The notes under the pieces are model-generated. The model had not been told where the DNA came from and searched no databases. It saw only the letters and a list, made by a program, of their open reading frames with translations. The position numbers were made by a program, and so were the translations under genes. A stretch of 64,000 nt of DNA from a virus. The stretch's first letter is position 1, and each line of letters begins with the position of its first letter. This document shows positions 800 through 62,285 of the stretch, one piece after another. The DNA lies in IMG/VR virus record IMGVR_UViG_3300004094_000049; one strand, given 5' to 3'.

Positions 800-1990
800 A
801 TGTTTGACGTTCAATTTGGTTTTTGTAATAAAGGCTCATATTCAGGGATTGGCAGCAGGCGAATACCTTTATTCTATACAAAGCAGCAAATGAAGTTTGC
901 TGCTGCTATGGTATTTATGGGTGTAAAACTTAGGTCTGGAGCTGCTGACGGCTCAGACACTGCTTTTGAGTTTGGTGCAAAGTTGGCTTATGACTTTCTT
1001 GCCAATTTTCACAATTTACCAAAAGGCGATTATGGCCGAGTAATGGACATCTACCTTCCATGGTCAGGCTTTAACGGTCGAGATAAGGGTAGTGGCTATA
1101 TCGATACCGTTCACCCACAGGCAGAAGCATTTACGAAAAAGTATCACAATTACTGGGAAGGCTTGAAAGTCGGTGCCAAAAAGATGATGAGCCGAAATGC
1201 AATGCAAGTACTCGGAACAGATCTTCAAGAGAAGGCTCGATTTATCATGTGCTATACGCCATGTGGATCAATCACGAATCGTGAAACATCTAGCAAAAGT
1301 GGTGGGACAGGGCAAGCAATACGCATAGGTGATGACCTAAAGATCAATGTTTACAACATTGGTAGGCCAGAGCATTTTTTGAAGGTTGAAAATTGGATTT
1401 CTGAGATTGAAATAAAAATTGAAGAGAAATACGGAGTTAACCTTTCAAGACTAGTCGATATGGGCCTAAGTGCTAGATCGCCTGGAGAAGCGCGAAGTGG
1501 CGACTTAGTGAAAAGCACATTAAATGGTGAGCACGACATCATCATACATGGATGTAATTGCCAGAACACAATGGGTTCAGGATTGGCAAAGCAAATTCGA
1601 ATGGCATTTCCTGAAGCTTACAATGCCGATTTGGCGACTCGTAAAGGCGATAAGAGGAAACTAGGAACTTATAGTTTTGCCAAAGTTCAACGTAACAATC
1701 ACCCAATAACAATTATCAATGCATATACGCAAGATAGGTGGGGTAGGGATGAGCAAAAACTTTACTCTGATTATGAGGCAATTCGAAATGTTATGAAAAG
1801 TATCAATGAAGACTTTCCATCAGGTCGGATTGTTGTTCCCAACCTTGGAGCTGGTTTGGCAAATGGGTGTTGGGCAACTATTGCCAATTCCCTCGATACT
1901 GCATTCAAAGGTAGGCAGTTAACACACATGACTCTGAATAATGAACTTGCCTTGCAAGCTGAACCAAATACACAACAACAACTTTTTTAG
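800..1990 (+). CDS. SLOG (DprA/YpsA-like) domain fused to a macro domain
   Basis: N-term YSGIGSR...LRSGAADGSDTAFE; C-term IIIHGCNCQNTMGSGLAKQI...IINAYTQ...PNLGAGLANG macro motifs. Confidence 0.8.
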   Translation: MFDVQFGFCNKGSYSGIGSRRIPLFYTKQQMKFAAAMVFMGVKLRSGAADGSDTAFEFGAKLAYDFLANFHNLPKGDYGRVMDIYLPWSGFNGRDKGSGYIDTVHPQAEAFTKKYHNYWEGLKVGAKKMMSRNAMQVLGTDLQEKARFIMCYTPCGSITNRETSSKSGGTGQAIRIGDDLKINVYNIGRPEHFLKVENWISEIEIKIEEKYGVNLSRLVDMGLSARSPGEARSGDLVKSTLNGEHDIIIHGCNCQNTMGSGLAKQIRMAFPEAYNADLATRKGDKRKLGTYSFAKVQRNNHPITIINAYTQDRWGRDEQKLYSDYEAIRNVMKSINEDFPSGRIVVPNLGAGLANGCWATIANSLDTAFKGRQLTHMTLNNELALQAEPNTQQQLF

Positions 1991-2009
1991 AACTATTTAA
2001 AGGCTAATA

Positions 2010-2843
2010 ATGAATAACAAGAAAAGTCTCGATCCGATCATAAAATGGGCAGGCGGCAAGCGCTGGATGAAGAATGTAATCAATGAGTTTTATATTCAAA
2101 GCGAGAAAAATATCTTATGTGAACCATTCGCAGGTGGTATTGCATCTTCTCTCCACATTCAGCCAGAACAGGCCCATATCAATGACTTGAATCCACACGT
2201 AATCAATCTATATCGTCAAGTTCAAGCAGGATTTGAGCTTGGTGATGATTTCGATTTTTCACAAAAGGGTTACTTAGAAGCGAGAGAGCGGTTTAACAAG
2301 TTAGCACTTTCTGGAGAATATGAAACTCAGGAAGCAGCAAGACTTTTCTATTATCTGAATAAAACCTGTTACAACGGCTTATGTCGTTTCAACAAGAAAG
2401 GTGGATTTAATGTACCTTTTGGACATTACGATTCAGTTAACTTACTTAAGAACTTTGATGACTACCAAGCCCTATTTTCCAAATGGAAAATAACACATGG
2501 TTCGTACAAGGACATGAATGTTTCGAAGAACGCATTTGCTGTCATCGATAGTCCTTACGATGAAGTTTTTAGCTCTTACACCATGGAAGGATTCAAAAAA
2601 CAAGATCAAGTTGAAACCGTTGAATGGGCTGATGATCTCGGCATTCCAATGCTTTTAACTAACAACCCAACAGATTTTATGATGGAACTCCTAACACGAC
2701 ATGGTTTTGATTACAAAATCCTCAGTTCGAGAAGAACCATCGCGGCTGACGGTAATAAACGTCATAAAGCATTAGAAGTGATTGCTTGGAAAAATATGGA
2801 AGCACCAGAAGCATTTGCTAAGGGTGAGATGAGTTTAAGCTAA
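2010..2843 (+). CDS. dam: Dam-like D12-class N6-adenine DNA methyltransferase
   Basis: KWAGGKRW, EPFAGG, YLNKTCYNGLCRFNKKGGFNVPFG; motif IV reads DSPY. Confidence 0.85.
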   Translation: MNNKKSLDPIIKWAGGKRWMKNVINEFYIQSEKNILCEPFAGGIASSLHIQPEQAHINDLNPHVINLYRQVQAGFELGDDFDFSQKGYLEARERFNKLALSGEYETQEAARLFYYLNKTCYNGLCRFNKKGGFNVPFGHYDSVNLLKNFDDYQALFSKWKITHGSYKDMNVSKNAFAVIDSPYDEVFSSYTMEGFKKQDQVETVEWADDLGIPMLLTNNPTDFMMELLTRHGFDYKILSSRRTIAADGNKRHKALEVIAWKNMEAPEAFAKGEMSLS

Positions 2844-2850
2844 GGTTTTC

Positions 2851-2872
2851 AGGCACCATGGTCATGGTGCCT
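2851..2872. terminator. hairpin between convergent genes
   Basis: AGGCACCATG-GT-CATGGTGCCT perfect 10-bp inverted repeat. Confidence 0.55.
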
Positions 2873-2876
2873 TATG

Positions 2877-3590
2877 CTAACTAAACATAGCCCTTGGATA
2901 GAAGTAACCATTAAAGTCTGGGTTTAACTTGTATAGCATTGAGGGACGTTGTTTCTTACTAGGAGAACTTTTCTTACCTGTATCAACAAGTAAATCGGCT
3001 TTCTTGATTTTTGTCCTAAAAGTCTTTTCATTAATTGACTGGCCCATAAGTTTTTCAGTTAACAATTGAAACTCTGGGATCGTGAATTCATCATCAAGAA
3101 GACTTAATGCTACAGGTGAGTAATCTGCTTTTGACTTGATTCTTTCATAAGCACAGTTCAGAACTTCTTTATGGTTAAATGAAAACTCATCCTCAGGTAG
3201 CTCTAATAGAGATTCAATAGAGAGCCACTTCCCGTTAGAGTCTTCATCAAGAATGTACTCAGAGGGCTTTAGAAGCGCAAAGAAAGCTACGTTTACTGTC
3301 ATGATGCGGTTAGGGTCAATGTAGATACCAGAAAAGGTTTGAAGTTGTTCAAAATGACCAATTTGTGCTTGTGTCTTTTCGTCAAGAGCAAAGATAGCTG
3401 CTTCTTCAACATTCTTGTGCAATTTTCTGTCTACAAATCCATTTGGAAAGGCAAGGCAAGAAGGGAACTCTTCTGCATCATCAGGGCGGACATAGGTAAG
3501 CACCTTCATCTTGCCCTCATTGTAGATCACTGGGATAACAGTAACACCACAGTTAGGTCGGGAATCATTGAATTTATCTGGGTCGTACAT
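2877..3590 (-). CDS. nrtR: NrtR-family regulator (degenerate Nudix domain plus winged HTH)
   Basis: Nudix fold (LAFPNGFVD, FEQLQTFSGIYIDP, VNVAFFALL) without the catalytic REUXEE; C-term FTIPEFQ...TFRTKI...RPSMLY wHTH. Confidence 0.85.
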   Translation of the reverse strand: MYDPDKFNDSRPNCGVTVIPVIYNEGKMKVLTYVRPDDAEEFPSCLAFPNGFVDRKLHKNVEEAAIFALDEKTQAQIGHFEQLQTFSGIYIDPNRIMTVNVAFFALLKPSEYILDEDSNGKWLSIESLLELPEDEFSFNHKEVLNCAYERIKSKADYSPVALSLLDDEFTIPEFQLLTEKLMGQSINEKTFRTKIKKADLLVDTGKKSSPSKKQRPSMLYKLNPDFNGYFYPRAMFS

Positions 3591-3611: not shown

Positions 3612-3651
3612 ATCATACGAGCCACACAACTAAATGTCAATGTTACATTAA
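3612..3651 (-). promoter_or_regulatory. sigma70 promoter of nrtR overlapped by an NrtR box
   Basis: Minus strand TTGACA(3640-3635)-17 bp-TATGAT(3617-3612), AGGAG RBS; 21-bp palindrome TAAATGTCAATGTTACATTAA at 3631-3651 with GT-N7-AC core. Confidence 0.8.
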
Positions 3652-9934: not shown

Positions 9935-10831
9935 ATGTGTGGGGGTATTGGGTTGAAAGTTAAACCAACAAAAGTAACTATGAACGCTGCTTTAAGAAAA
10001 TCCATTAAGGAGAATTTAGCAATCGTTCCTGAAGATAAGCTTGCAGAGCTTGGCAGCTCAGCAAAAGACTACGATTTCCTGCTTTCTCTAGTTTCTGATG
10101 GCCGTGGATTTATGATGATTCCTTGGGTGGAAGATAACTTGTCAATGCGGAATATTATTGCTAATAAATTAGAGAATAGTATAGAAGATTGTTTTGAAGA
10201 ACGAGAAATTGATAAGCAAACATATGAGAAATACAAGACATCTTTACTACAGTGGAAGAGAATTGGTCGCTGGATTGCACCAGCAAAGCCTAAAACGAAA
10301 GCTAAAGATGATCCTTGGAAGGCAATGGTTGAAACAACAATGATGATCAGCGCATTCAGAGCAATACAGTTACTACGTAAGCCTGGCTCTCCTGTTAGGT
10401 TAACATCAAATGTTGAAAATCTATTATTAGAGTCTGTTAATGCGAATTGGGGAGGGGTGACTTCGTCAAGTGAAGGTGGATTCGTAAAAGGGAAGCCCTA
10501 CGTTAGAATAAATATGTTTATGTTTAAAAAACATAGAGTTAAACCAGTAATGAAGCATGTAGAAGATTACGCGACATCTTTGAAGGATCCAAATTTATTT
10601 ACATTCTACGGGCCATTCGACTTAGTGCTTACAGCGAACGTTGCATCGACTTTATCTACAGCGATACAACGCTCTGCAAGACATCTTGAGATTGAAAACT
10701 TAAGTGACAAAGAGTTGTCTTGGATAGAAGTATACTCATTTATTCGTGAAAATTGGATCAATCAAGAAATTGAAATTGAGAGATCGCTACCAAGAGGATA
10801 CAGTAATGCACCTGAACCTAGCCCATTTTGA
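9935..10831 (+). CDS. hypothetical protein
   Basis: 298-aa ORF, no recognised motif; start uncertain. Confidence 0.6.
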   Translation: MCGGIGLKVKPTKVTMNAALRKSIKENLAIVPEDKLAELGSSAKDYDFLLSLVSDGRGFMMIPWVEDNLSMRNIIANKLENSIEDCFEEREIDKQTYEKYKTSLLQWKRIGRWIAPAKPKTKAKDDPWKAMVETTMMISAFRAIQLLRKPGSPVRLTSNVENLLLESVNANWGGVTSSSEGGFVKGKPYVRINMFMFKKHRVKPVMKHVEDYATSLKDPNLFTFYGPFDLVLTANVASTLSTAIQRSARHLEIENLSDKELSWIEVYSFIRENWINQEIEIERSLPRGYSNAPEPSPF

Positions 10832-11639
10832 ATTGTGAAGTTTCAAGAACTACACCGCGTGAACTTGCTTCTTGTAGGAATGAATCACCAAGTTCAGAAA
10901 AGCCTGCAACGTTTGAACTTGTATCTGTTAACAGTACGACTTTACGGCTGATGTTACGCTCATCTAGCATATCAAGAAACTGTAGAACAGATGCTCTCAC
11001 ACAATGCGATAGCGCTTGTCCTGCGAAGACAACAGTTTCACTTTTCAGGATTCTATCAAATAAATGATGGTTGAATTGTGTCTCTGTTACTTCAGGTAAA
11101 GGTACTTCAGCTTTAAAAGCACCAAAGTGTTCAGTCAGTTCATGCTTACCTTTTTTGACAGTGAGGTATTCAATCTTTAAATCTTCAAGCGCACTTTGAA
11201 CTGGCTCTACAATGCTGTGTCCAATCGTATCTTCGATAGTATGATCAGGCCATATAAAGTGTGTCATACCTGTTTTTTCAAGCTCAGTAAGATAGTTTTC
11301 GACATATTCTGTCAATGAAGCATCTACGGGCCTAAATTTGCCTTCTAGATAGCTTTCTAAAGAGATTGCAGTGAAAGGCGATACGTGACAATCATCACTA
11401 TCTAGCCAAAAGCCTGAATGAGCGATATCAATTTTTGAGTGAGTATCCATCAGAACAACAGTATCATCAATAAATTCAGATTGCTCTCGGATGAATGAAC
11501 CTAGACGCTTAGCGTCCTCCCATGCCCCAGCAACGGGCAACGCTGGCTCAATCAAGTGATTGTCAACAATGCCTTTCTTGTCTTCTGGAACATCATGAAA
11601 GTCGTACTGTGGGTCGATAATTACTAATGTAGCTGACAT
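10818..11639 (-). CDS. pncA: nicotinamidase-like cysteine hydrolase (PncA/isochorismatase family)
   Basis: LVIIDPQYDF, DTH, IWPDH, KG, GQALSHCV: catalytic Asp/Lys/Cys and metal ligands present. Confidence 0.8.
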   Translation of the reverse strand: MSATLVIIDPQYDFHDVPEDKKGIVDNHLIEPALPVAGAWEDAKRLGSFIREQSEFIDDTVVLMDTHSKIDIAHSGFWLDSDDCHVSPFTAISLESYLEGKFRPVDASLTEYVENYLTELEKTGMTHFIWPDHTIEDTIGHSIVEPVQSALEDLKIEYLTVKKGKHELTEHFGAFKAEVPLPEVTETQFNHHLFDRILKSETVVFAGQALSHCVRASVLQFLDMLDERNISRKVVLLTDTSSNVAGFSELGDSFLQEASSRGVVLETSQFKMG

Positions 11640-11650: not shown

Positions 11651-11700
11651 TTAATGTAATTCTTACATTAAATATTAGTGTAAGAATTACATTAAGTCAA
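11651..11700 (-). promoter_or_regulatory. two tandem NrtR boxes over the nicotinamidase promoter
   Basis: TTAATGTAATTCTTACATTAA (11651-11671) and TTAGTGTAAGAATTACATTAA (11675-11695); promoter TTGACT-17 bp-TAATAT on minus strand. Confidence 0.85.
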
Positions 11701-42432: not shown

Positions 42433-43401
42433 ATGTTCTTGGAGTTTGGTTTAACACTAGATAATGATTACATTCATGTCTCTGAAGTCGAGAGTGGCGC
42501 ATGTGACGTAGTTTGCCCTTTTTGCAAAGGCGAGTTGATAGCAAAAAAAGGTAAGATTAAATCGCACCATTTTGCACATGCCCAAGATACCTGTGCTGAA
42601 TCTTTACAGGTCATTCAGCAGATTCAGATCCCTACTATTGATACGTTTGAGTACTTAGATACCAGTGAGAAGAAATACATGGATCGCCGTAGTCGGTATG
42701 ACCATAGTTCCATCTTCTCATGGAAAGGTATGAATCAAGCAATCAAGCGACTTAATGCCATGGGCCTGGTAGAGATCAGTAGGAAAGAGTCACGAGAGAT
42801 ATTGGATGCTAAGTCACAACTGAAGGAATTGACCTCATTATTTCATGCAGATGGAAGTCCTAAACCCGAATTTTATGCCGTTCTAGAGGCACTTGAACCC
42901 ATATGCAAGGCCAAATCTAAATGGAAACGTGGTGAAACGGTCGATGTGAAAATAAGTCGTGATTACTTTAAGCATGAGATCAGGCACCCAGAATCTACAT
43001 CACTTAACGCCCTATCAAAAAGTCAGCTTTTCTGGATGGATGCCTTTCGTAAAAGACAAGAAGCGTTTTTCCCAGAATGTCTTGAAATGCTTGATTTGAA
43101 AATGAAATACATCGATAGCCAAAATTTGTACCTAATGCAATTTACCAATGGCACTGAGATCATTCATAAGATTGGTGTGACGACAAAGAGCGCGACTCAA
43201 AGGCTGAAGGAAGTAGAGCGAATGATTAAGTCATATGGATTCTATGATGGACAGGTTCTATGTGTGGTTCCTAATATGGGTCGAGTTGAGAGGCTTGCAC
43301 ACCGTCATTACAAAACTCAGCACTATAAGTTGGGCCGTTTCCAAGAGTTCTTTTCATTTAAAGACATTAACGCTGTAGAAGGTGTCCTTAAATCACTTTA
43401 A
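42433..43401 (+). CDS. CoiA-like zinc-finger plus GIY-YIG/T5orf172-like domain protein
   Basis: CPFCKGELIAKKGKIKSHHFAH; C-term LYLM...HKIGVTTK...RLKE. Confidence 0.6.
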   Translation: MFLEFGLTLDNDYIHVSEVESGACDVVCPFCKGELIAKKGKIKSHHFAHAQDTCAESLQVIQQIQIPTIDTFEYLDTSEKKYMDRRSRYDHSSIFSWKGMNQAIKRLNAMGLVEISRKESREILDAKSQLKELTSLFHADGSPKPEFYAVLEALEPICKAKSKWKRGETVDVKISRDYFKHEIRHPESTSLNALSKSQLFWMDAFRKRQEAFFPECLEMLDLKMKYIDSQNLYLMQFTNGTEIIHKIGVTTKSATQRLKEVERMIKSYGFYDGQVLCVVPNMGRVERLAHRHYKTQHYKLGRFQEFFSFKDINAVEGVLKSL

Positions 43402-43510
43402 CCTTGTCTTGATGTCCTCAAAATCAAATTTTGTGTCCTCAACTGCACATAATGTCCTTAAATATTGATTATCCCCTGTCTTGATAGTAAGTTTAACCCA
43501 ATTAAGGACA
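43383..43510. repeat. cluster of TGTCCTYAA motifs upstream of the Fic gene
   Basis: Direct copies at 43383, 43413, 43434, 43453 and an inverted copy TTAAGGACA at 43502. Confidence 0.75.
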
Positions 43511-43526
43511 TTTTAAGTGACTGCAT

Positions 43527-44942
43527 GTGAATTTAAGACATTATATCGATGAAGAGCTTGCCCTGCTCCTGGAGGCTGTTAGCGCTTCAGAGAGTGCCCT
43601 CACCATTAATGAGGTAGCCAAGAATGTTCAGCTAGATATCTCGGACAAAACCCTTCAAAGAAGACTCAAGCGATTAGTATCTGAAGGCAAGATTACAACT
43701 GAAGGATCTGGCCGTGGCCTTAAGTATAAGGCTTCAGAGAATAGCCTCATTAAATCTTCTAAGCCTGAAGATCTGATCTCTGAGCCTGCTGTCATGACTG
43801 GCAATATCATATTTTCTCAAGAGTCATTAAGGAAACTAGAGAGACTTGATACGCCATCTTTTGCTCGCGATAAGGTGTCTTATGATACATCGCTTGTTGA
43901 GAAGTACGTGCCAAATACGACGCGCTTCGTGTCACCTGAATTGTCGAGCCGCCTTGTCGAAATGGGTAAGCGGTTCAACAGTAAGTTGGCCGCAGGGACT
44001 TATGCAAAGGATATTGCTCAACGTCTTTTAATCGACCTGTCATACAACTCCAGCCGCTTAGAGGGTAATACGTACTCTATTCTCGATACGGAGAAGTTAC
44101 TTGAGATTGGTGAGGTAGCAGATGGCAAGATGGATGAAGAAACAATCATGCTTCTTAACCACAAGGAAGCGATCTTGTTTCTGATCGAGAACGCCGAAGA
44201 GTTAACCATTAGCCCTTTTGTTATACGCAATATTCATCAATTGCTTTCACAAGATTTACTTGATGAGCCTTATATGTCGGGGCAAATTAGGGAGAAAGAA
44301 GTAAAGATCACCATGACTTCTTACTTGCCCGTCAGTGGATTTCAACTTCTTGAGGAACTGTTTACATTATTGCTACGAAAAGCTAGTCAAATCACTGACC
44401 CGTTTGAGCAGTCTTTCTTTTTGCTCATTCACTTGTCATACCTACAAGCATTCATTGACGTCAATAAGCGAACGGCTCGACTTAGCTGTAATCTGCCTTT
44501 CATTAAAGACAACCTGTGCCCATTGAGCTTTGTTGATGTGCCCAAAGATGACTATCTGCGTTCTTTGGTGTATTTCTATGAGACAGGTGATCATCAGCCT
44601 TGTCTTGAGGTGTTTATGTGGGCTTATGAGCGTTCTAGCCAGCAATACACGGTTGTTGAGAAATCGATGGGTAAGATTGATGCTTATCGAATCAAGTATC
44701 GTGCTAAACGTAAAGAAGTTATTGGTCGTATAATTCGTGATATGGTTGTTGGGGCTAATATTGCAATCATTTTAGAGCAGTTTTGCCTTGAGAACAAAAT
44801 TGAAAATCCAGACAAGTTTATCTCTATCGTTACAGTTGAACTAAGCAAGCTGCACAGTGGTGCTATTTTAACGCTAGGCGTGACTGAAAGCACATTCATA
44901 GATTGGCAAGCAAAGTACAAAAAATCACAGGAATTTAAGTAA
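43527..44942 (+). CDS. Fic-domain protein with N-terminal HTH
   Basis: LSYNSSRLEGN, Fic-like YLQAFIDVNKRTARL; HTH ISDKTLQRRLKRL. Confidence 0.85.
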   Translation: MNLRHYIDEELALLLEAVSASESALTINEVAKNVQLDISDKTLQRRLKRLVSEGKITTEGSGRGLKYKASENSLIKSSKPEDLISEPAVMTGNIIFSQESLRKLERLDTPSFARDKVSYDTSLVEKYVPNTTRFVSPELSSRLVEMGKRFNSKLAAGTYAKDIAQRLLIDLSYNSSRLEGNTYSILDTEKLLEIGEVADGKMDEETIMLLNHKEAILFLIENAEELTISPFVIRNIHQLLSQDLLDEPYMSGQIREKEVKITMTSYLPVSGFQLLEELFTLLLRKASQITDPFEQSFFLLIHLSYLQAFIDVNKRTARLSCNLPFIKDNLCPLSFVDVPKDDYLRSLVYFYETGDHQPCLEVFMWAYERSSQQYTVVEKSMGKIDAYRIKYRAKRKEVIGRIIRDMVVGANIAIILEQFCLENKIENPDKFISIVTVELSKLHSGAILTLGVTESTFIDWQAKYKKSQEFK

Positions 44943-45355
44943 TGCAGTCGATAGATCAGCACATAATTAAGATGCTTGAGGACATGAGAGAAAGGCTGGC
45001 GCTTCAATGCGACGGCTTTTGTCAGCTCGCTTCACACTACCTGACTGAAATGGGCATTGATCATGAAATAGCTGGTGGATATATGCTATTTAATCAGCAA
45101 CACATACAGCACTTTTGGATCGAGTTTACTGATACTCCTTTCATTGCTGACTACTGTGCTCGCATGTGGTTTCCAACGCTTGGTGAGGCAGTGCCACACG
45201 GGGTCTTTAAGATAGCGGATTACAGGGAAAACTATATCTTTGAGAAATACGCAAAAAGTGGTGAGCTTTCTAAGCTACTTGTCAGCATTCATGAGTCAGA
45301 TACTAAGGAGCTTTGGGAAAACAGTCTCAAGCAACTGTCTAAACAAACTCATTAA
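44942..45355 (+). CDS. hypothetical protein with possible Cys-His transglutaminase-like core
   Basis: TAATG-coupled to Fic gene; QCDGFC...HFWIE. Confidence 0.55.
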   Translation: MQSIDQHIIKMLEDMRERLALQCDGFCQLASHYLTEMGIDHEIAGGYMLFNQQHIQHFWIEFTDTPFIADYCARMWFPTLGEAVPHGVFKIADYRENYIFEKYAKSGELSKLLVSIHESDTKELWENSLKQLSKQTH

Positions 45356-45388
45356 ATCATAGAGCACGATTAGTGCTCTTTTTTATAG

Positions 45389-45844
45389 TCATACACCGTA
45401 GAACTCATCAATCAAGCTTTTGAATCGCGATAGAAATTCTTTGTCGGTATCAATCTCAACACCATATTTTCTTTCAGCATTTCTAAATTCGTCTATCAGA
45501 CGCCCTTCTCTCTCATTGTGAGTGCCAGATAGAATTGTGCTTATCTCATCCCATGTGTTTTCTGGATCGCCGCCCCTTGCGTCAGATTCAATCTTAAACT
45601 TGAGGGTTGCTAGAAACAGATCTCTAGGTTCAAGGCGCAATGCTTTCGCGGTCGCGATGATTTTTCCATATGGTAGGCCCATCTTACCTTTGCTGAGCAA
45701 GGTTAATGCTGGAGAGTCTGTCTTAGATTCTTTGCGAGCCAGTCCGATTTCACGCACAAGCGCTTGATTGTTGGCATCTGGCCGATTTCGCAATCCTAAC
45801 TTGATGAGGTCACTTAATTCTAAATGATCATGATTGTGCTTCAT
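45389..45844 (-). CDS. XRE-like HTH transcriptional regulator
   Basis: LTLLSKGKMGLPYGKIIATAKALRLEPRDLF. Confidence 0.6.
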   Translation of the reverse strand: MKHNHDHLELSDLIKLGLRNRPDANNQALVREIGLARKESKTDSPALTLLSKGKMGLPYGKIIATAKALRLEPRDLFLATLKFKIESDARGGDPENTWDEISTILSGTHNEREGRLIDEFRNAERKYGVEIDTDKEFLSRFKSLIDEFYGV

Positions 45845-46115
45845 TTTAATCTACTCTATGTTTGTCTTTCGTCAGGCAGTTCCACCTTGCGATTTATCTT
45901 TACCAATTGGCCTACGATTATATTAAATAAAATAAACGACTCATATCTAAGAGGAACAATGAGTCAAAACCATTATTGGTTTATAAAGTATGGCGTTTAT
46001 GCGCTTAGCATTCAAGTGAGCGGTTCCAAAATGTCATTAAGTTCACACGCTATAAATTGTTCTCCCTTACTTTATGCATTAATATTTCATAAATTATCGA
46101 AAAAGAGTGAATTCT

Positions 46116-46424
46116 ATGTCAGATGAATTAGGTTTGGCTTTACTTGAGTACATTGCAACAGGTGAAGGTAGAACATTTCTCGCCTTTACTGGCTCTAAAT
46201 CCGAAGCTCTAGATTGGTTTGGTGATTACTTTGCCATAGGAATGGTCTTTAAGACGGATTCTGAATGGCTTGCACTGGATTCCAAGTCGGATTTATCTAA
46301 GCAAGAAGAGGAAGACTTTTGTTTTCTTCAAGTCTTTAAGGATGAATGCCCAAATGCTTGGACAATGTTTTCCATGGGCCGTAAACCAAGTATTGCCTAC
46401 AGGTTCCACTATAACGTGTCTTGA
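46116..46424 (+). CDS. hypothetical protein
   Basis: ~102 aa from ATG 46116, followed by a hairpin. Confidence 0.5.
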   Translation: MSDELGLALLEYIATGEGRTFLAFTGSKSEALDWFGDYFAIGMVFKTDSEWLALDSKSDLSKQEEEDFCFLQVFKDECPNAWTMFSMGRKPSIAYRFHYNVS

Positions 46425-46456
46425 GTGTTGAAAATAATGGCCCTAAGGGCCATTGT

Positions 46457-47269
46457 TCACTTGATGTGGCCGATCATTCTATCTAGAAAGCTCGGCTGAG
46501 AAGGGTGACTCATTTTGACGGGAAACTCGCGGTAATGCTCTTCTATAATTCCCCATAGCCCTGGGTGGCTTACTTTTAGTTTTTGGCTAACAATGGCGGC
46601 ATACTCACTGTCTAAGCCGATTAAGAGTTCAAACCAATAGGAGCCTAAGAACATTGCATAGATGTTCTCTTGTTCGCGCAAGTACTTCATCGTGTCTCTG
46701 AAACAATCACTAAGCAATGCATCATAAGCAACGTACATAGCATCAATCAGTTGCTCGTTGTAAAGTTGCTCGCAGAGCTTTTCTACTTTGGTTGGGATTT
46801 CTATGTTTAGCTCTGACTTTTCCAGCAAAGCGGTGATCTGAAGAATAGTCAGGATGTCTGATGCATCCTCATCTGTTCTGGCATATGTTGAAATCAAATC
46901 TGCTTGAGTAAGCCAATGATCGCCATTTTTTCTAATCGCTAACACAAAAGGCAGTAAGATACGCAGCGGCAGGTTTGAAATTCGCTCGGTTATACCTGTC
47001 ACCCAATCAAGAAGCTCCATATCCATTTGGTCGGTTAACATCGGATAATGACGTGTTGCTTCAGGGATATACCGTTTCAACGTTGTGCCCAGCATATCGA
47101 TAGGATCAACGCCAGTTCGAGACGAAAATAGCGCAGTGCCTGTCGCAACAGAAGAGATGTTGAGTGGGAGCTTCTGGAGTTCTAACTCAACATGCTTATC
47201 ATTTGTCATCACTTCTGTTTTCATTTGAGAAAACAGCTCAGATAAAATCAAACTGATCATTACCACCAC
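46457..47269 (-). CDS. hypothetical protein coupled to ARH2
   Basis: Overlaps or closely follows the ARH2 stop; start uncertain. Confidence 0.6.
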   Translation of the reverse strand: MVVMISLILSELFSQMKTEVMTNDKHVELELQKLPLNISSVATGTALFSSRTGVDPIDMLGTTLKRYIPEATRHYPMLTDQMDMELLDWVTGITERISNLPLRILLPFVLAIRKNGDHWLTQADLISTYARTDEDASDILTILQITALLEKSELNIEIPTKVEKLCEQLYNEQLIDAMYVAYDALLSDCFRDTMKYLREQENIYAMFLGSYWFELLIGLDSEYAAIVSQKLKVSHPGLWGIIEEHYREFPVKMSHPSQPSFLDRMIGHIK

Positions 47270-48108
47270 CTCTTGAAAGATTGTTGCTTTTTGAAGCCGA
47301 CTTCTTCGCGAAACTGAATATACAACTTGTACAGTTCAGGCTCATGATCTTCTAAAATTGTAAGGGCCTTGGTTTCGACTTCTGAATCTATTCCAAAAAA
47401 AGCCTCTGCAATACCACCAGCGATTGCGCCTGTTGTATCACTGTCGCCACCGACGTACTGAACTAAGCGCATGGTTTCTTCAAACGAATCCGATTCTAAA
47501 AAGCAGTAGATGGCAACGGGCACTGACCCTTTTGCTGACACATCAAAGCGATACTTTTCACGGAGCACTTGAGTTTGGAAGAAAAGATCATAACCAATGA
47601 CATCTTCTATATAGCTCTTGATGTCTTTTTTTGTGCCGCCCATACGCGCAATGTAAATCGACATCGCGGTAGCTACTGCACCTTTGATACCTTCTGCATG
47701 ATTGTGCGTACACTTGGCGCTTTTAATGCTTTCAATGAGGACGGTACGATGATCGTTGTTGGCCCACGCTATAGGACTTACACGCATTGCTGCGCCATTA
47801 CCCCAACTGTTGTAGGGTGTCGGGTCGTAATTGTAATTTCGCGCCCATTGAGCAAACATTTCGCCAAAACCAACCTTATGCTTCTGCTCTGTATCTATTT
47901 CTTCATGGATATACTTGCGAGCCATTGAGGCATAATGATTCTCATAGTTACTAGACCCACCAAGTATGGTTTTTGCAGTCGCTAGAGTCAGTAATGTATC
48001 ATCTGTAAATGAGCTACCCTCAGGAAATAGCTCAAAGGCATAATCTGGCTTTGTATCAGAAAACTCGAAAGTACTTCCAATAATGTCGCCAATAATTGCA
48101 CCCAACAT
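47260..48108 (-). CDS. ADP-ribosylglycohydrolase (DraG/ARH family) 2
   Basis: MLGAIIGDIIG, FTDDTLLT, SWGNGAAMRVSP, THNH, GGDSDTTGAIAG. Confidence 0.92.
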   Translation of the reverse strand: MLGAIIGDIIGSTFEFSDTKPDYAFELFPEGSSFTDDTLLTLATAKTILGGSSNYENHYASMARKYIHEEIDTEQKHKVGFGEMFAQWARNYNYDPTPYNSWGNGAAMRVSPIAWANNDHRTVLIESIKSAKCTHNHAEGIKGAVATAMSIYIARMGGTKKDIKSYIEDVIGYDLFFQTQVLREKYRFDVSAKGSVPVAIYCFLESDSFEETMRLVQYVGGDSDTTGAIAGGIAEAFFGIDSEVETKALTILEDHEPELYKLYIQFREEVGFKKQQSFKRWW

Positions 48109-48188
48109 ATTATTATTCCATTTATTAGTAACGGTAAGGTATAATACGCCAATTTCGATTAAAGTTAAATAATATAAAGTATATTAGA

Positions 48189-49235
48189 ATGAAGAAAGCC
48201 TTTGTATTTGGTGGGATTTTGACCGCCCTATATTCAATCTCTGCAATTGCATCTCCTGAACATATGGATGTGGAAAATCATATGGATTCTAAAGAGATTT
48301 TCCATAGGTTGTCCACCTTGATTGTCACACCCTATCACCTTCCAACTCACAACTTCAAAAAGCGGATCTACTTTGGAGCTGATACCGAGCAGGCTTGTGA
48401 ATTTCGCGATAAAGGTTTCATTAATTTTGTAGACCTGGAAGGTGGCCGAGTAACGAACATTGACTTAGATTTCGACATGCCAAGTCAAAAAGCCATGCTT
48501 GAGACAGATCCCGAAGAGGTGGCTAGCGTTATTAAGCGTGCTGGGAATCAAGCAAAAGAGCAATGCTTTGATGTGGTTCTGGGGCCAGTGACTGACTATG
48601 GTGTCACAGACAGAGAGTTGTACCAGATGGCGGACAAGCCAACAATCGATACTTCAGGCGCGACCAAGCGACTGGCTAAGATAGCTCAAGTTTATGAAGA
48701 TATGGGAATTATCCCAACCTATAAACATTACCCTGTCACTAAATTCATTGGTGATAGCCCCGAATATAGGAGCATGTCTCAGAAGTACATCAAGACGCCA
48801 GACGAACTCTATAATGGCTATGTCGAAGCAGAGCCTAAAACCATTAAAGATAGTGAAAGCTCTGAATACAAACAGGTGGTTAGCGATGTTGAAAAGCAGA
48901 TAAATACTGGCCCTCAAAGGTCAATGGTTATGCTAGCTAACTATGCAATCAAAGAGTACGGATACCTACCCTATGTTATGAGCGATGCACCACAGCACGA
49001 TCCTGTTTTAAAGAACTACGATGGCTTGATCATTACGGATGACCTTTACCAAATCAGAATCAATAGCGATACCAGCACCAAGATTTTTAAGAATGCGGAT
49101 TTGTTCATCATAACAAGCCTTGAAGACCTACAAACATTCGTAAGGAACATTGCCACGGCCACACATGGCTCTATAGAGATGCAAGAACTGCTGATTGAAA
49201 AGTCTGATAAGGTAGATGCGTTTTTTGAGCAATGA
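48189..49235 (+). CDS. secreted GH3 N-terminal-domain protein (NagZ-like)
   Basis: Signal peptide; VDLEGGRV, YKHYP, DGLIITDDL. Confidence 0.65.
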   Translation: MKKAFVFGGILTALYSISAIASPEHMDVENHMDSKEIFHRLSTLIVTPYHLPTHNFKKRIYFGADTEQACEFRDKGFINFVDLEGGRVTNIDLDFDMPSQKAMLETDPEEVASVIKRAGNQAKEQCFDVVLGPVTDYGVTDRELYQMADKPTIDTSGATKRLAKIAQVYEDMGIIPTYKHYPVTKFIGDSPEYRSMSQKYIKTPDELYNGYVEAEPKTIKDSESSEYKQVVSDVEKQINTGPQRSMVMLANYAIKEYGYLPYVMSDAPQHDPVLKNYDGLIITDDLYQIRINSDTSTKIFKNADLFIITSLEDLQTFVRNIATATHGSIEMQELLIEKSDKVDAFFEQ

Positions 49236-49339
49236 TCTGTTCAACTTTCTTGGTGTAGAAAAGTCGAACAAGAGGTTTTGGTATCAAAATTAATCCCAAC
49301 ACTTATCTTGAGCAGTGATAATGTTGGGATTTCAATATA

Positions 49340-49356
49340 TTAGATAACGGTCTAGT
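49340..49356 (+). repeat. 17-bp dispersed site, copy 4 (TTAGATAACGGTCTAGT)
   Basis: Exact consensus, 1 bp from the stop of 49358..49852. Confidence 0.9.
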
Positions 49357-60256: not shown

Positions 60257-60267
60257 TATTATTCCAT

Positions 60268-60984
60268 TTAATTCAATCCGCATACCCTGTTAAGAACTTT
60301 TCGTTGTTCTTCAAGTTCATGCTTGTTGTATTTTAAACCATATTTGTGCGCAATATCGATGAATGTCATAGAGTATTCGCACTGATAACCTTTGCTTGGT
60401 GGAAGCCACTTAGTAAAGTCGTCCGCACCTTTTGACGTGTTAAGTGATGCACTTACAATCCTAAGGTTTTCATAGTCATTTGCAAATTGAGTACGTTTTT
60501 CCAATGACCACTCATCTGCACCGTGTTGGAAGGCATGGTAAAGAGGAACAATATGGTCAATGTGTACATCTGAAGCTTCATCAAACACTTTACCAGAGTA
60601 TGGGTCTAGCCAAGCTCCTGTATCAACCGTACACCCCTTTCTAGAGCGAAAGTCCACCTTCTCTACTGATTGTGTAATTAAAAGCGTCTGGCGTGTATTC
60701 TGGCAATCTCCATCGGTATCAAGCCAATGGGGAAACAGATCTCTATCGTACTCTTTTGTAGATTGCGTCGATTCAGGGCCAGAGTAAGATTTCGGTAGTC
60801 GGCCACCAGCATCTAAACACGAATCCATTGTTGCGTGAGCTTCAAAGGTTTTAGTTCTTGTGTAAAATGAGCTTGTAGAGTCATGGCAGATCCCACTATT
60901 GCTCAATTTTATTACTTCTGCGTTTGCAGTGGGTGCAACAAAAGCACCCACAACAACTGCAAGTCCTAGCAGATGTTTTATCAT
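60268..60984 (-). CDS. secreted HNH/DUF1524-type endonuclease
   Basis: Signal peptide; WLDPYSG, HIDHIVPL, FANDYENL, NTSKG. Confidence 0.8.
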   Translation of the reverse strand: MIKHLLGLAVVVGAFVAPTANAEVIKLSNSGICHDSTSSFYTRTKTFEAHATMDSCLDAGGRLPKSYSGPESTQSTKEYDRDLFPHWLDTDGDCQNTRQTLLITQSVEKVDFRSRKGCTVDTGAWLDPYSGKVFDEASDVHIDHIVPLYHAFQHGADEWSLEKRTQFANDYENLRIVSASLNTSKGADDFTKWLPPSKGYQCEYSMTFIDIAHKYGLKYNKHELEEQRKVLNRVCGLN

Positions 60985-60986
60985 AA

Positions 60987-62285
60987 TTATTTATTCTTAA
61001 ATTCAATCAAGTAACGGATGTTTGCTTGTTTTGTATTATACACAATCATCTCGTTATTTATAACTCCTGATTTACCTGCAACGGCAAAAGTCGAGTCGTA
61101 TCTAGGTTTTGGAAAATCTTCATAACTACTTTGAGGAATGTAAGGAGATCCCATAGCTACATCGCATAAGAACATGTAACACGTATCATCTTTTGAACCG
61201 CCATCCCAATAGCCATACGAGTAGTTTAGTGACTTACTTCCCTGGTCTGAAAAGTACAAACCATCACCGAACATTCGGCCAGTTACGTGTCCTGAGCGAG
61301 ATGGCGGAATAATGAGGCCATTCTTTAGAATTGATAAGATGTTACCTGCACGAGTACCATGCCATAAACGCATAACGTTCTCGATGTGACGGCCTGATTT
61401 ATCGAAGTCATTATTCATTCCATCGACGGTCACTTCAAAGATTCGATTCACTTCTAAATTGCTTGAAGCATGGTAAGACTTACGAGTATTGTTGTAGAAA
61501 CCTTTAATGAATTCTTCAACTTCTGGATTATCCATCAGAGTCAGTTCGCAATTGAAGATTTCAGGAATTTCTAAGTCTTTTTCGGCTTGTTTTTCCTTTG
61601 CTTCGCGGAATTCTTCAATGTGCTCCAAAGATGATTCTAGGTCATCTAGGATTGCGTTTTGCTTATGCACTGCCTCTTCATCTGGAATGACTTTTTTCAC
61701 TGACAATCGAGAGCCGACTTTTTGAGGAATGAGCATAAGATAACTAGCAAGAGCCTCTTTTACTTTGTCGCTCGTGAAATCGCTATTTTTAACAATGCAA
61801 TCAGATAGTGTTGTCAAAAGATCTCGCGCTTCATGAATGCTTTTCAGAGATACAACGCCCATTGGAGTCATAAATAAGCCAGTATCTTCATCGTATGTGA
61901 TGTCTGTTTGAGACGTGATGCTGTGGATATTTAATTGAATCAGTTTTTCGATGATTCCTTCAACATCTTTACGATTACCCTTTGTTCGAATTTGATCTTT
62001 TGCTGCTTGTTCAACAACTTTTCGCTCATTAACTTTTACGGTTCCATTTGATTCAACAACATCCAGAACTTTATAGCCCTTTCTCTCTTTTTCACGCTGT
62101 TTCGTCGCAACAAATCGAAGCGCTGCTTGCTCTGAGCCAAAAGACTTTGGTCGTTGTTGCTGGCCTTTAGAGCCTACACGGCCATTTGTTACATGGACAT
62201 TGAAGCTATCATCTACTTCAGCCTTCCAGAATTTGTTATTGTTTCCGTCTACATTAGACATTACTAGCGTGATCGTATGAAGCAT
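60987..62285 (-). CDS. WGR-domain poly/mono(ADP-ribose) polymerase (PARP-like)
   Basis: WGR-like N-term (NNNKFW...NGRVG), helical linker, LWHGT / GLYFS...KSLNY / NNEMIVY giving an H-Y-E triad. Confidence 0.9.
   Translation of the reverse strand: MLHTITLVMSNVDGNNNKFWKAEVDDSFNVHVTNGRVGSKGQQQRPKSFGSEQAALRFVATKQREKERKGYKVLDVVESNGTVKVNERKVVEQAAKDQIRTKGNRKDVEGIIEKLIQLNIHSITSQTDITYDEDTGLFMTPMGVVSLKSIHEARDLLTTLSDCIVKNSDFTSDKVKEALASYLMLIPQKVGSRLSVKKVIPDEEAVHKQNAILDDLESSLEHIEEFREAKEKQAEKDLEIPEIFNCELTLMDNPEVEEFIKGFYNNTRKSYHASSNLEVNRIFEVTVDGMNNDFDKSGRHIENVMRLWHGTRAGNILSILKNGLIIPPSRSGHVTGRMFGDGLYFSDQGSKSLNYSYGYWDGGSKDDTCYMFLCDVAMGSPYIPQSSYEDFPKPRYDSTFAVAGKSGVINNEMIVYNTKQANIRYLIEFKNK

What the first reader, a model, noticed from the sequence alone, without database searches (positions are those of the whole stretch)
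800..62285. Dispersed, apparently self-regulating ADP-ribosylation / NAD+ circuit on one accessory replicon
Seen: an H-Y-E WGR-PARP (60987-62285), a SLOG-macro fusion (800-1990), two ARH/DraG hydrolases (41436, 47260), an NrtR repressor (2877) and a nicotinamidase (10818) carrying NrtR boxes. Established: PARPs convert NAD+ to nicotinamide plus bound ADP-ribose, macro and ARH enzymes release ADP-ribose, and ADP-ribose derepresses NrtR. Inference: the element encodes writer, erasers, sensor and salvage enzyme as a feedback loop, either its own signalling/conflict system or a counter to NAD-depleting or ADP-ribosylating defences. The genes are not clustered, so operon-based defence finders would miss the link.
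Basis: partly seen in the sequence, partly recalled or inferred. Interest (0 to 1): 0.78.

Follow-up and report, generated by a model that had tools for sequence, protein, structure and literature searches.

The report
Megaplasmid NAD salvage and PARP toolkit
This stretch of a giant Vibrio-type plasmid carries its own NAD+ recycling genes under an ADP-ribose-sensing repressor, together with a eukaryote-like PARP and enzymes that remove ADP-ribose. The recycling switch is well supported, but its wiring to the PARP remains an inference.

Summary
All six genes are real and at the stated coordinates: a WGR-HD-PARP with an intact H-Y-E triad, a DprA-like(SLOG)-macro fusion, two ARH3-like hydrolases, an NrtR and a divergent nicotinamidase. 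Three 21-bp NrtR operators (TTAATGT-N7-ACATTAA) overlap the nrtR and nicotinamidase promoters (0.03 expected by chance). They sit at the same positions in a Vibrio harveyi 629-kb contig and in a metagenome relative.

The whole window is collinear with that V. harveyi contig. There the block continues leftwards into nadD-like, pncB and nadE, with another operator between pncB and nadD-like. The macro fusion lies in the nadD-like gene string.

Relatives are ~0.8-1.2 Mb megaplasmids of Vibrio, Pseudomonas (pMPPla107 family) and Variovorax. All four complete ones searched have a PARP, a nicotinamidase of one of two mutually exclusive types, and an NrtR-like gene. ARH and macro genes vary. In pMPPla107 and in Viridibacterium an ARH sits in the pncA-pncB-nadE string.

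No operator lies near the PARP, the ARHs or, within the window, the macro gene. Unrelated PARP-bearing replicons carry erasers but no NrtR.

Verdict: a canonical NrtR-controlled salvage regulon, newly seen on a plasmid, sits beside a bacterial PAR toolkit. Coupling between them through free ADP-ribose is plausible and untested. Moderately interesting.

The parts
3..263 (+). 3' end of a small membrane-protein gene. It is the orthologue of the 116-aa gene in the V. harveyi nadD-like-lpxC-x-x-x-macro-dam gene string, so the window's left edge cuts this string.
   Evidence: 52% identity to L017:9117-9467; gene order.
267..776 (+). 169-aa protein of unknown function, 24 bp upstream of the macro fusion. 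A gene of the same size holds the same position in the V. harveyi and V. parahaemolyticus elements.
   Evidence: no Pfam or PHROG hit.
800..1990 (+). Fusion of a DprA-like (SLOG) domain and a DarG-type macro domain: a putative ADP-ribose-binding or ADP-ribosyl-hydrolase protein, possibly aimed at ssDNA.
   Evidence: Full-length orthologues on Vibrio and Pseudomonas FeN3W megaplasmids.
2010..2843 (+). Dam-type N6-adenine DNA methyltransferase, 20 bp downstream of the fusion. The pairing is conserved in relatives.
   Evidence: PF02086 at 1.5e-34; synteny.
2877..3590 (-). [quoted passage not shown]
   Evidence: 67% identical to the V. harveyi orthologue.
3631..3651 (.). NrtR operator 1 (TAAATGTCAATGTTACATTAA). 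It overlaps the -35 of the nrtR promoter (TTGACA 3640-3635, TATGAT 3617-3612) and lies 10 bp before the divergent 108-aa ORF at 3661-3987.
   Evidence: conserved in L004, L006 and L017.
10818..11639 (-). Divergent nicotinamidase (PncA-like, 273 aa): it converts nicotinamide to nicotinate and is the first step of Preiss-Handler salvage.
   Evidence: It holds the pncA position in an nrtR<>pncA-pncB-nadE string. It is mutually exclusive with canonical PncA in the megaplasmids.
11651..11695 (.). NrtR operators 2 and 3 (11651-11671, a perfect 9-3-9 palindrome, and 11675-11695). They cover the spacer, the -10 and the start region of the nicotinamidase promoter (-35 at 11700-11695, -10 at 11677-11672).
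   Evidence: orthologous sites in L004, L006 and L017.
39945..49356 (.). A 9.4-kb unit bounded by two copies of the 17-bp repeat TTAGATAACGGTCTAGT. It holds a tyrosine recombinase (39997-41349), both ARH genes and variable cargo (T5orf172, Fic).
   Evidence: The recombinase-ARH1...ARH2 order is conserved in V. harveyi, but the cargo between them differs.
41436..42344 (+). ARH1: an ARH3-like ADP-ribosylglycohydrolase with its metal-binding motifs intact.
   Evidence: 43-44% identical to the ARHs of the Pseudomonas megaplasmids.
47260..48108 (-). ARH2: a paralogue of ARH1 (43% identical). Its end overlaps by 10 bp the start of a 270-aa ORF of unknown function (46457-47269).
   Evidence: The 64%-identical orthologue is on the V. 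harveyi contig.
60987..62285 (-). WGR-helical domain-ART poly(ADP-ribose) polymerase homologue with the H-Y-E triad.
   Evidence: 77% identical in V. harveyi and 40-53% in all related megaplasmids.
60268..60984 (-). GmrSD_C/HNH-type nuclease gene starting 2 bp after the PARP stop. The pairing is kept only in the closest relative.
   Evidence: the neighbours differ.

Best explanation
The window is part of a giant plasmid of the Vibrionaceae type. It is related to the ~0.9-Mb Vibrio megaplasmids and, more distantly, to the Pseudomonas pMPPla107 family and the Variovorax megaplasmids. The plasmid carries its own NAD+ economy.

(1) Salvage arm. NrtR represses its own gene and a divergent nicotinamidase gene through three 21-bp operators placed over their promoters. 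By collinearity with the V. harveyi element, pncB, a nadD-like adenylyltransferase and nadE lie just beyond the left edge behind a further operator. The DprA-macro fusion and dam lie in the same co-directional gene string as the nadD-like gene.

(2) NAD consumers and ADP-ribose releasers. These are a DNA-break-sensor-type PARP (WGR-HD-ART, H-Y-E) and two ARH3-like hydrolases. They are encoded elsewhere on the element and are not under NrtR.

Proposed working: when NAD+ is consumed by ADP-ribosylation, nicotinamide and (after ARH or macro hydrolysis) free ADP-ribose appear. ADP-ribose releases NrtR from its operators. The nicotinamidase and the rest of the Preiss-Handler pathway then recycle nicotinamide to NAD+. 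The consumer could be the plasmid's own PARP, the sirtuins seen in relatives, or host or phage enzymes.

What is shown: the genes, their catalytic motifs, the operators, and the conservation and linkage of these parts in relatives. What is inferred: that ADP-ribose is the effector, that the PARP and the hydrolases are active, and that their products feed NrtR.
For: Genes and motifs.

Operators: 3 sites with at most 1 mismatch against 0.03 expected. They overlap the promoters. They are conserved at orthologous promoters in L004, L006 and L017, and a further site lies between pncB and the nadD-like gene.

Linkage:
- NrtR is adjacent to this nicotinamidase family in Variovorax, where a macro gene sits in the NrtR string and an NAD kinase in the nicotinamidase string.
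- Viridibacterium has nrtR<>pncA-like-pncB-nadE-NMNAT/Nudix-...-pnuC-...-ARH-Tpt1.
- pMPPla107 has ARH-x-x-PncA-pncB-nadE, with nadD and an NrtR-like gene 17 kb away.

Megaplasmids: PARP, an NrtR-like gene and a nicotinamidase are present in 4 of 4. The canonical and divergent nicotinamidases are mutually exclusive.

Collinearity: the whole window matches the V. harveyi contig, which carries all six genes.

Published basis: the 21-bp GT-N7-AC palindrome, ADP-ribose as the anti-repressor, and NrtR regulons containing pncA/pncB and draG (PMC2330246).
Against: No NrtR operator lies within reach of the PARP or either ARH, or upstream of the fusion inside the window. None lies in the V. harveyi PARP region either.

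ARH is absent from the Variovorax plasmid. The fusion is absent from pMPPla107, where the Pfam Macro model also found nothing.

The NrtR-like genes of the Pseudomonas plasmids are only 22-24% identical.

Unrelated PARP-bearing replicons have erasers but no NrtR_WHD, so PARP does not generally travel with NrtR.

Co-occurrence within one megaplasmid superfamily may simply be inheritance, and I could run no size-matched control.

The macro domain has Q-D where the DarG chains have K-K, and it is fused to an ssDNA-binding-type domain. It may therefore not release ADP-ribose from proteins.

pncB, nadD and nadE are not seen in the window itself. The ligand-binding residues of NrtR were not checked.
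Confidence: 0.55

Rival explanations
1. These are separate modules that merely share a very large replicon. The NrtR-nicotinamidase regulon is ordinary NAD housekeeping carried by a plasmid rich in housekeeping-like genes. The PARP, with its adjacent HNH nuclease, serves the element's own DNA-break signalling or repair. The ARHs belong to a recombinase-bounded unit with their own, unknown partners. The DprA-macro fusion works on DNA. No feedback loop connects them.
For: No operators lie at the PARP, ARH or macro genes. The genes are dispersed over 60 kb here and over hundreds of kb in V. parahaemolyticus. PARP neighbours differ in every lineage: Tpt1, an exonuclease, SSB/Rad52, HNH. Both ARHs lie in a unit bounded by 17-bp repeats next to a tyrosine recombinase. 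ARH2 overlaps a 270-aa ORF of unknown function. ARH and the fusion are lost in some relatives. The ARH2 family is very large, with over 7000 proteins at E<=1e-40, and is mostly chromosomal.
Against: ARH genes recur inside pncA-pncB-nadE strings in two unrelated contexts. A macro gene sits in the Variovorax NrtR string. The fusion lies in the nadD-like string behind an operator in V. harveyi. Free ADP-ribose is diffusible, so physical clustering is not needed for coupling.
Confidence: 0.3
2. The set is a counter-defence kit. The salvage genes replenish NAD+ drained by host NADase defences (SIR2, TIR and similar types). The DprA-macro fusion removes ADP-ribose placed on incoming single-stranded plasmid DNA by DarT-type toxins. 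The ARHs reverse ADP-ribosylation of plasmid or host proteins by foreign transferases.
For: The macro domain's closest families are DarG. It is fused to a DprA-like domain of a type common in phages. In V. parahaemolyticus a NADAR gene lies beside the same Dam gene, about 2 kb from the fusion. From my own knowledge, not checked here: phages carry NAD+ reconstitution pathways against NAD-depleting immunity, and NADAR proteins reverse DNA ADP-ribosylation.
Against: Only the macro domain (DarG model) and the unrelated Fic gene match PADLOC models. The DarG-position lysines are not kept. The salvage genes are under a homeostatic repressor, as in chromosomes. No phenotype or target is known. The PARP, the most conserved member, has no place in this model.
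Confidence: 0.12

Closest known systems
NrtR regulons of NAD salvage (Rodionov et al. 2008, PMC2330246), e.g. Pseudomonas nrtR<>pncA-pncB and Vibrio pncA-nrtR<>pncB. S. oneidensis NrtR structure 3GZ5.
   Same: A Nudix-like plus winged-helix repressor. 21-bp palindromic operators with the GT-N7-AC core placed over promoters. Autoregulation. Targets pncA and, in the V. harveyi relative, pncB and nadD. ADP-ribose is the expected inducer.
   Different: It is carried on a giant plasmid rather than the chromosome. The nicotinamidase is a divergent 270-290-aa subfamily that Pfam does not recognise in the window protein. A DprA-macro fusion and dam sit in the same gene string as the nadD-like gene.
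Streptomyces nrtR1-draG operon (ADPR-type NrtR regulon in PMC2330246).
   Same: An ARH/DraG-family hydrolase associated with NrtR, as in the Viridibacterium and pMPPla107 strings found here.
   Different: In the window the ARH genes are about 30-45 kb from nrtR and the nicotinamidase gene and have no operator.
Bacterial PAR metabolism sets: Herpetosiphon aurantiacus and Clostridioides difficile PARP with PARG, MacroD and ARH3 (PMC4245714, PMC5966428, PMC8120803).
   Same: A WGR-(HD)-ART PARP with H-Y-E, co-occurring with macro and ARH3-like erasers in the same genome.
   Different: Pfam found no PARG domain in the ORFs I scanned (most ORFs of 100 aa or more), and I ran no PARG-specific search. 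The set is plasmid-borne and is a conserved backbone gene of a megaplasmid superfamily. It is accompanied by its own NrtR-controlled salvage pathway.
DarG antitoxin macrodomain (PDB 5M3I, 5M31; NCBIfam NF048014).
   Same: The closest macro subfamily by sequence. The ADP-ribose-binding loops are recognisable.
   Different: There is no DarT partner nearby and no DarG C-terminal domain. The fusion is to a DprA-like domain instead. The residues at the K-K position are Q-D. The score is far below the equivalog cut-off (41 against 250 bits).
pMPPla107/pBASL58 Pseudomonas megaplasmid family (PMC6482414).
   Same: Shares the PARP (48-52% identity), the ARH (43-46%), an NAD salvage set and many genes of unknown function. 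Both are replicons of very large size.
   Different: The window is closest to Vibrio elements. The nicotinamidase type and the NrtR are different or very divergent. The papers on that family that I searched do not mention PARP, NAD or ADP-ribosylation.

Membership tests
NrtR (Nudix-related transcriptional regulator) | N-terminal Nudix-like domain plus C-terminal winged-helix DNA-binding domain | tested here: met
   PF21906 at 1.5e-15. Full-length match to S. oneidensis NrtR 3GZ5 at 1e-25 (residues 2-233). NCBIfam NtrR at 1e-25, but below its equivalog cut-off of 400 bits.
NrtR (Nudix-related transcriptional regulator) | 21-bp palindromic operators with a GT-N7-AC core over the promoters of NAD genes and of nrtR itself | tested here: met
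   Three sites with at most 1 mismatch against 0.03 expected. They overlap the -35/-10 elements and are conserved in relatives. The motif definition is from PMC2330246.
NrtR (Nudix-related transcriptional regulator) | DNA binding relieved by ADP-ribose | not testable with these tools
   This needs EMSA with and without ADP-ribose. The ligand-contact residues were not compared.
Nicotinamidase (PncA/Pnc1) | Isochorismatase-like fold with nicotinamidases as the nearest structures | tested here: met
   AF2 pLDDT 96.7. The top 12 Foldseek PDB hits are all nicotinamidases (2WTA at 2e-14, TM by target 0.80), ranked ahead of other isochorismatase-like hydrolases.
Nicotinamidase (PncA/Pnc1) | Asp-Lys-Cys catalytic triad plus the Asp/His metal site | tested here: met
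   D9, K163, C213, D65 and H67 are invariant, and H74 is kept in at least 90%, across 30 homologues. Assigning them to the triad and the metal site rests on my knowledge of PncA motifs.
Nicotinamidase (PncA/Pnc1) | Sequence membership in Pfam Isochorismatase or the NCBIfam PncA equivalog | tested here: not met
   No Pfam hit for the window protein. NCBIfam PRK11609 scores 20 bits against a cut-off of 174. Some homologues do carry PF00857. It is therefore a divergent subfamily, filed as PncA-like by fold, motifs and context.
Nicotinamidase (PncA/Pnc1) | Genomic context with pncB and NAD synthesis genes | tested here: met
   pncA-like-pncB-nadE-NMNAT in L014. pncB and NMNAT near it in L015. Same block as pncB, nadD-like and nadE in V. 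harveyi. Mutually exclusive with canonical PncA.
PARP (clade 1-like, DNA-dependent) | WGR plus helical regulatory plus ART domains | tested here: met
   PF05406, PF02877 and PF00644 are all above their cut-offs. PARP1 and PARP2 are the best PDB matches.
PARP (clade 1-like, DNA-dependent) | H-Y-E catalytic triad | tested here: met
   Aligned with H, Y and E of human PARP1 in LWHG(S/T)R, G(I/L)YF(A/S)D and NE(Y/M)IVY.
PARP (clade 1-like, DNA-dependent) | DNA-break-stimulated poly(ADP-ribose) synthesis | not testable with these tools
   This needs an enzyme assay.
ARH/DraG ADP-ribosylglycohydrolase | PF03747 fold with the acidic di-metal site motifs | tested here: met
   3e-45 and 6e-37. FTDDT and GGD(T/S)DT are present in both proteins. 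ARH3 is the best PDB match. Substrate not testable.
DarG-type macrodomain | Macro fold of the DarG/TARG1 branch | tested here: met
   NCBIfam DarG at 1.3e-10, PADLOC DarG at 3e-11, and PDB 5M3I at 3e-7.
DarG-type macrodomain | Catalytic lysine and a DarT partner (a toxin-antitoxin pair) | tested here: not met
   The residues aligned with 'TKK' are 'TQD'. Which lysine is catalytic comes from memory. No DarT-like neighbour is present, and the flanking genes are a 169-aa unknown and dam. It is not filed as DarG.

The most novel reading that the evidence does not exclude
WGR-PARP is a conserved backbone gene of a widespread superfamily of Mb-scale proteobacterial megaplasmids. It works there as a DNA-break sensor whose NAD+ consumption is buffered by a plasmid-encoded, ADP-ribose-sensing (NrtR) salvage loop. 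This would give the first physiological role for a bacterial PARP. It might also explain known costs of these plasmids, such as the unexplained quinolone sensitisation caused by pMPPla107 (PMC8544880), through PARP-driven NAD+ drain after DNA damage.
Probability: 0.15. Interest if true: 0.8.

Novelty: new member of a known kind. Interest (0 to 1): 0.5.

Why it matters
Reviews state that the function of bacterial PARPs is unknown and that evidence for their activity in cells is scarce (PMC8120803, PMC4245714).

This work places a full-length H-Y-E PARP in all four complete related megaplasmids searched (Vibrio, Pseudomonas, Variovorax), in the V. harveyi contig and in this window. In these elements it is accompanied by a nicotinamidase, an NrtR-like regulator and usually ADP-ribose hydrolases.

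One member, pMPPla107, is self-transmissible and already used in the laboratory. Its measured phenotypes include altered quinolone sensitivity. The question of what a bacterial PARP does, and whether it is coupled to NAD+ salvage, therefore becomes directly testable by deletion and metabolite measurement.

The work also defines a divergent nicotinamidase subfamily that domain databases miss. It shows that an NrtR regulon can be carried by a plasmid.

Tried and rejected
- No whole genome is held for the window.
- Exact-product look-ups of the window's PARP, fusion and nicotinamidase found nothing.
- An exact 39-mer from the left edge was not found in genome contigs. The rest of the 207-kb contig (length) could therefore not be read, and pncB, nadD and nadE are inferred from the V. 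harveyi relative only.
- Megablast of 20 kb found no near-identical plasmid or phage.
- The PARP pattern scan of genome contigs found nothing. Viral contigs gave one hit at 38% identity, which I did not pursue.
- Relaxing the operator search to 3 mismatches gave only chance-level extra sites, none at the PARP, ARH or macro genes.
- V. parahaemolyticus has only weak operator-like sequences upstream of its nicotinamidase. Variovorax has a different palindrome, CGTTAGT-N11-ACTAACG, present twice. I noted it but did not test it.
- PADLOC gave no hit for the PARP, the ARHs or their neighbours.
- PHROGs and Pfam gave nothing for the conserved unknowns at 8438-9505, 9935-10831, 3984-4889, 3661-3987, 267-776 and 46457-47269.
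- The Atlas gave nothing usable for the ARH2-coupled 270-aa ORF, so the idea that it is an ADP-ribosyltransferase partner is unsupported.
- The idea that the ARH unit is a recent island absent from relatives was rejected, because V. harveyi has the same recombinase-ARH1...ARH2 arrangement.
- A jumbo-phage origin was considered, because of the RNR, Dam and UvrD genes and the many ORFans. I rejected it in favour of a megaplasmid: the best homologues and the collinearity are with plasmids and a 629-kb bacterial contig, there are no tRNAs, and no structural phage genes were seen.

Full report
OBSERVATION

- PARP (60987-62285, minus strand). It has WGR, PARP_reg and PARP catalytic domains above Pfam cut-offs. 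Aligned to human PARP1, its LWHGTR, GLYFSD and NNEMIVY segments fall on the H, Y and E of the catalytic triad.
- Macro fusion (800-1990). It has a Macro domain at residues 249-359. The nearest families are DarG macrodomains: NCBIfam 1e-10, PADLOC 3e-11, and PDB 5M3I/5M31. Residues 12-207 are a short DprA-like domain common in phages (phrog_768 at 1e-42; Atlas structural TM 0.76). The residues aligned with 'TKK' of the DarG chains are 'TQD', so DarG-like lysine chemistry cannot be assumed.
- The two ARH proteins. They are clear PF03747 members (3e-45 and 6e-37) and are 43% identical to each other. Both keep the acidic metal-site motifs and are closest to ARH3 among solved structures.
- NrtR. 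It matches Shewanella oneidensis NrtR (3GZ5) over its full length at 1e-25 and has a degenerate Nudix box.
- The 'nicotinamidase'. This was the weakest call: no Pfam hit, no PDB sequence hit, and only 20 bits to the NCBIfam PncA model. Thirty homologues keep D9, D65, H67, K163 and C213 invariant and H74 nearly so. The AlphaFold model has pLDDT 96.7. Its twelve best PDB fold matches are all nicotinamidases, ahead of other isochorismatase-like hydrolases.

The three NrtR boxes are real. TTAATGT-N7-ACATTAA occurs three times with at most one mismatch, against 0.03 expected. Box 1 overlaps the -35 of the best promoter-like site of the region, that of nrtR. Boxes 2 and 3 cover the spacer, the -10 and the start region of the nicotinamidase promoter. 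The 21-bp palindrome with a GT-N7-AC core is the published NrtR motif (PMC2330246).

WHAT THE ELEMENT IS

No genome is held for the window, and there is no near-identical plasmid or phage.

The PARP's best database relatives lie on 0.8-1.2 Mb megaplasmids. These are Pseudomonas (FeN3W, Leaf58, pMPPla107, P. silesiensis; 46-52% identity), Vibrio vulnificus and V. parahaemolyticus (47%) and Variovorax (40%). Jumbo phages follow at 33-37%.

The closest relative is a 629-kb Vibrio harveyi contig, and the whole window is collinear with it:
- PARP (77% identity) followed by the same GmrSD_C nuclease;
- CYTH-recombinase-ARH1...ARH2, with ARH2 64% identical;
- the block running from the nicotinamidase gene to the macro fusion: pncA-like, two unknowns, RlaP, UvrD, DksA-like, a further unknown, NrtR (67%), Dam, macro fusion.

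The window's own contig is 207 kb. The window has no tRNAs and, in the ORFs scanned, no phage structural genes or core housekeeping genes. 'Accessory replicon' is therefore a reasonable inference, not a demonstrated fact.

THE SALVAGE ARM

In V. harveyi the block continues leftwards beyond where the window ends:

nadE-pncB <operator> nadD-like-lpxC-three small genes-macro fusion-dam

The gaps between these genes are 2 to 71 bp. The partial ORF at the window's left edge is the orthologue (52% identity) of one of those small genes. The window is therefore cut inside this string, and pncB, nadD and nadE very probably lie within about 6 kb to its left. This is an inference.

The operators upstream of nrtR and of the nicotinamidase gene are conserved in V. 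harveyi and in a metagenome relative whose nicotinamidases are only 45-48% identical.

The same nicotinamidase family is found next to NrtR in other lineages:
- Variovorax: divergently adjacent to NrtR. The NrtR string also holds a Nudix hydrolase, RecX and a macro protein. The nicotinamidase string holds an NAD kinase.
- Viridibacterium: it heads the string nrtR<>pncA-like-pncB-nadE-NMNAT/Nudix-DUF4291-pnuC-AAA_28-ARH-Tpt1.

In the four complete megaplasmids searched, the divergent form (Vibrio, Variovorax) and a canonical PF00857 PncA (both Pseudomonas plasmids) are mutually exclusive. This pattern is what one would expect if the two proteins do the same job.

I therefore hold the NrtR-controlled nicotinamide salvage module to be well supported (about 0.85). 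It is a standard NrtR regulon in design. Rodionov et al. list nrtR<>pncA-pncB in Pseudomonas and pncA-nrtR<>pncB in Vibrio chromosomes, as well as an nrtR-draG operon in Streptomyces.

THE LINK TO WRITER AND ERASERS

For a link:
- PARP, an NrtR-like gene and a nicotinamidase occur in all four complete megaplasmids, in V. harveyi and in the window.
- Three of the four also carry two SIR2 genes. V. harveyi has two SIR2 genes flanking a Pif1 helicase next to its PARP.
- In pMPPla107 the ARH orthologue (43-46% identity) lies in the string ARH-x-x-PncA-pncB-nadE, with nadD and an NrtR-like gene 17 kb away.
- An ARH also closes the Viridibacterium salvage string and lies 3.4 kb from the nicotinamidase in another contig.

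Against a link:
- No operator lies near the PARP, either ARH or the fusion within the window, even at 3 mismatches. None lies in the V. harveyi PARP region.
- ARH is missing from the Variovorax plasmid and the fusion from pMPPla107.
- The NrtR-like proteins of the Pseudomonas plasmids are very distant, at 22-24% identity.
- PARP neighbours differ in every lineage.
- Five unrelated PARP-bearing replicons were searched with Pfam models (Paenibacillus pSC2, Jeotgalibacillus and Tsukamurella plasmids, phages XacN1 and FBKp34). An ARH was found in 2, a macro in 3 and NrtR_WHD in none. The PARP-eraser pairing is thus general, as already surveyed in the literature (PMC4245714). The pairing with NrtR is specific to this megaplasmid group and may be inherited rather than selected.
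- Both ARH genes lie in a 9.4-kb unit bounded by 17-bp direct repeats beside a tyrosine recombinase. That arrangement is conserved in V. harveyi, with different cargo between the two ARHs.

MECHANISM

The most likely working is the canonical NrtR logic applied to a plasmid that brings its own NAD+ consumers.
1. ADP-ribosylation consumes NAD+ and releases nicotinamide.
2. ARH3-like hydrolases, and possibly the macro protein, release free ADP-ribose.
3. ADP-ribose takes NrtR off its operators.
4. The nicotinamidase and the Preiss-Handler enzymes rebuild NAD+.

What is shown: the genes, the motifs, the operators, and their conservation and linkage. What is inferred: the effector, the enzyme activities, and the flow from PARP products to NrtR.

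I give the integrated picture 0.55. The 'separate modules' reading gets 0.30 and a counter-defence purpose 0.12. The DprA-like fusion partner, the DarG-type macro and the NADAR gene beside the same Dam gene in V. parahaemolyticus make a DNA-directed role for the fusion a serious alternative.

NOVELTY

The parts and the logic are known kinds.

What I did not find in the literature searched:
- that WGR-PARP is a backbone gene of the pMPPla107-like, Vibrio and Variovorax megaplasmids;
- that these plasmids carry an NrtR-controlled salvage pathway. The pMPPla107 family paper has no mention of PARP, NAD or ADP-ribosylation. The ADP-ribosylation review has no mention of NrtR, nicotinamidase or megaplasmids.

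Bacterial PARP function is stated there to be unknown. pMPPla107 changes quinolone sensitivity of its hosts for unexplained reasons. A connection with a DNA-break-activated NAD+ consumer is speculative but easy to test.

Verdict: observation confirmed, interpretation partly supported, new member of known kinds, interest 0.5.

Noticed in passing
window 32515-32531, 38880-38896, 39945-39961, 49340-49356: Four co-oriented copies of the 17-mer TTAGATAACGGTCTAGT delimit three modules: pilin/adhesin-like genes, CYTH, and recombinase plus two ARHs plus cargo. GC content is higher at 40-50 kb (0.41-0.435). In V. harveyi the recombinase-ARH1...ARH2 frame is kept, but T5orf172, Fic and the small ORFs between them are replaced by one 236-aa gene. 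This suggests a site-specific recombination hotspot.
   Followed up: partly
window 62879-64000 (-); L019 5615-9043: The window ends inside a Pif1/UvrD_C-type helicase gene. In the collinear V. harveyi region a Pif1 helicase is flanked by two SIR2-domain genes just upstream of the PARP. Three of four related megaplasmids also carry two SIR2 genes. These are further NAD+ consumers beside the PARP.
   Followed up: partly
L018 (pMPPla107 635891-641205): An apparent operon ARH-hyp-hyp-isochorismatase(PncA)-pncB-nadE on the Pseudomonas megaplasmid. nadD and an NrtR-like NUDIX gene lie 17 kb away.
   Followed up: partly
L004 1-9870, L006 1-9862 versus window 11701-14714: In V. harveyi and a metagenome relative, the nicotinamidase gene abuts a full Ter-type stress cluster (TerB, TerC, TerD x3, PRTase_2/TRSP, StiP/PELOTA_1, C-C bond lyase, HAD). 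In the window only a HAD gene remains, followed by a 741-aa protein with a peptidoglycan-binding motif.
   Followed up: no
window 20543-21187: A LOG/SLOG (Lysine_decarbox, LDcluster4) gene lies directly upstream of class Ia RNR nrdA-nrdB (21220-24771).
   Followed up: no
window 7671-8411, 14799-15404, 39354-39917, 43527-44942: The element is rich in other nucleotide-centred genes: an RlaP nucleotidyltransferase, a stand-alone EAL domain, a CYTH domain, and an HTH-Fic protein that matches PADLOC SoFic and PDC-S04 models.
   Followed up: no
window 8438-9505 and 9935-10831: Two proteins without family assignment (355 and 298 aa; the latter has a faint DndC/PAPS-reductase-like C-terminal match). 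They are conserved in position between RlaP and the nicotinamidase gene in the window, V. harveyi and a metagenome contig. The second overlaps the nicotinamidase gene end to end, by 14 bp.
   Followed up: partly
L017 14520-14540; L004 16253-16273: In V. harveyi a 2-mismatch NrtR-like site lies upstream of the DksA/TraR-type gene. The window has no counterpart upstream of its orthologue (4943-5302).
   Followed up: partly
L013 8440-8585 (Variovorax SRS16 plasmid 2): The nicotinamidase<>NrtR intergenic region holds two copies of a different palindrome, CGTTAGT-N11-ACTAAC(G/A). One of them spans a TATAAT. It may be the operator of this diverged NrtR.
   Followed up: no
L002 12749-13378 (V. parahaemolyticus pVP-19-VB00998): A NADAR-family gene lies beside the Dam gene, about 2 kb from the macro fusion. 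The window has no NADAR at that position.
   Followed up: no
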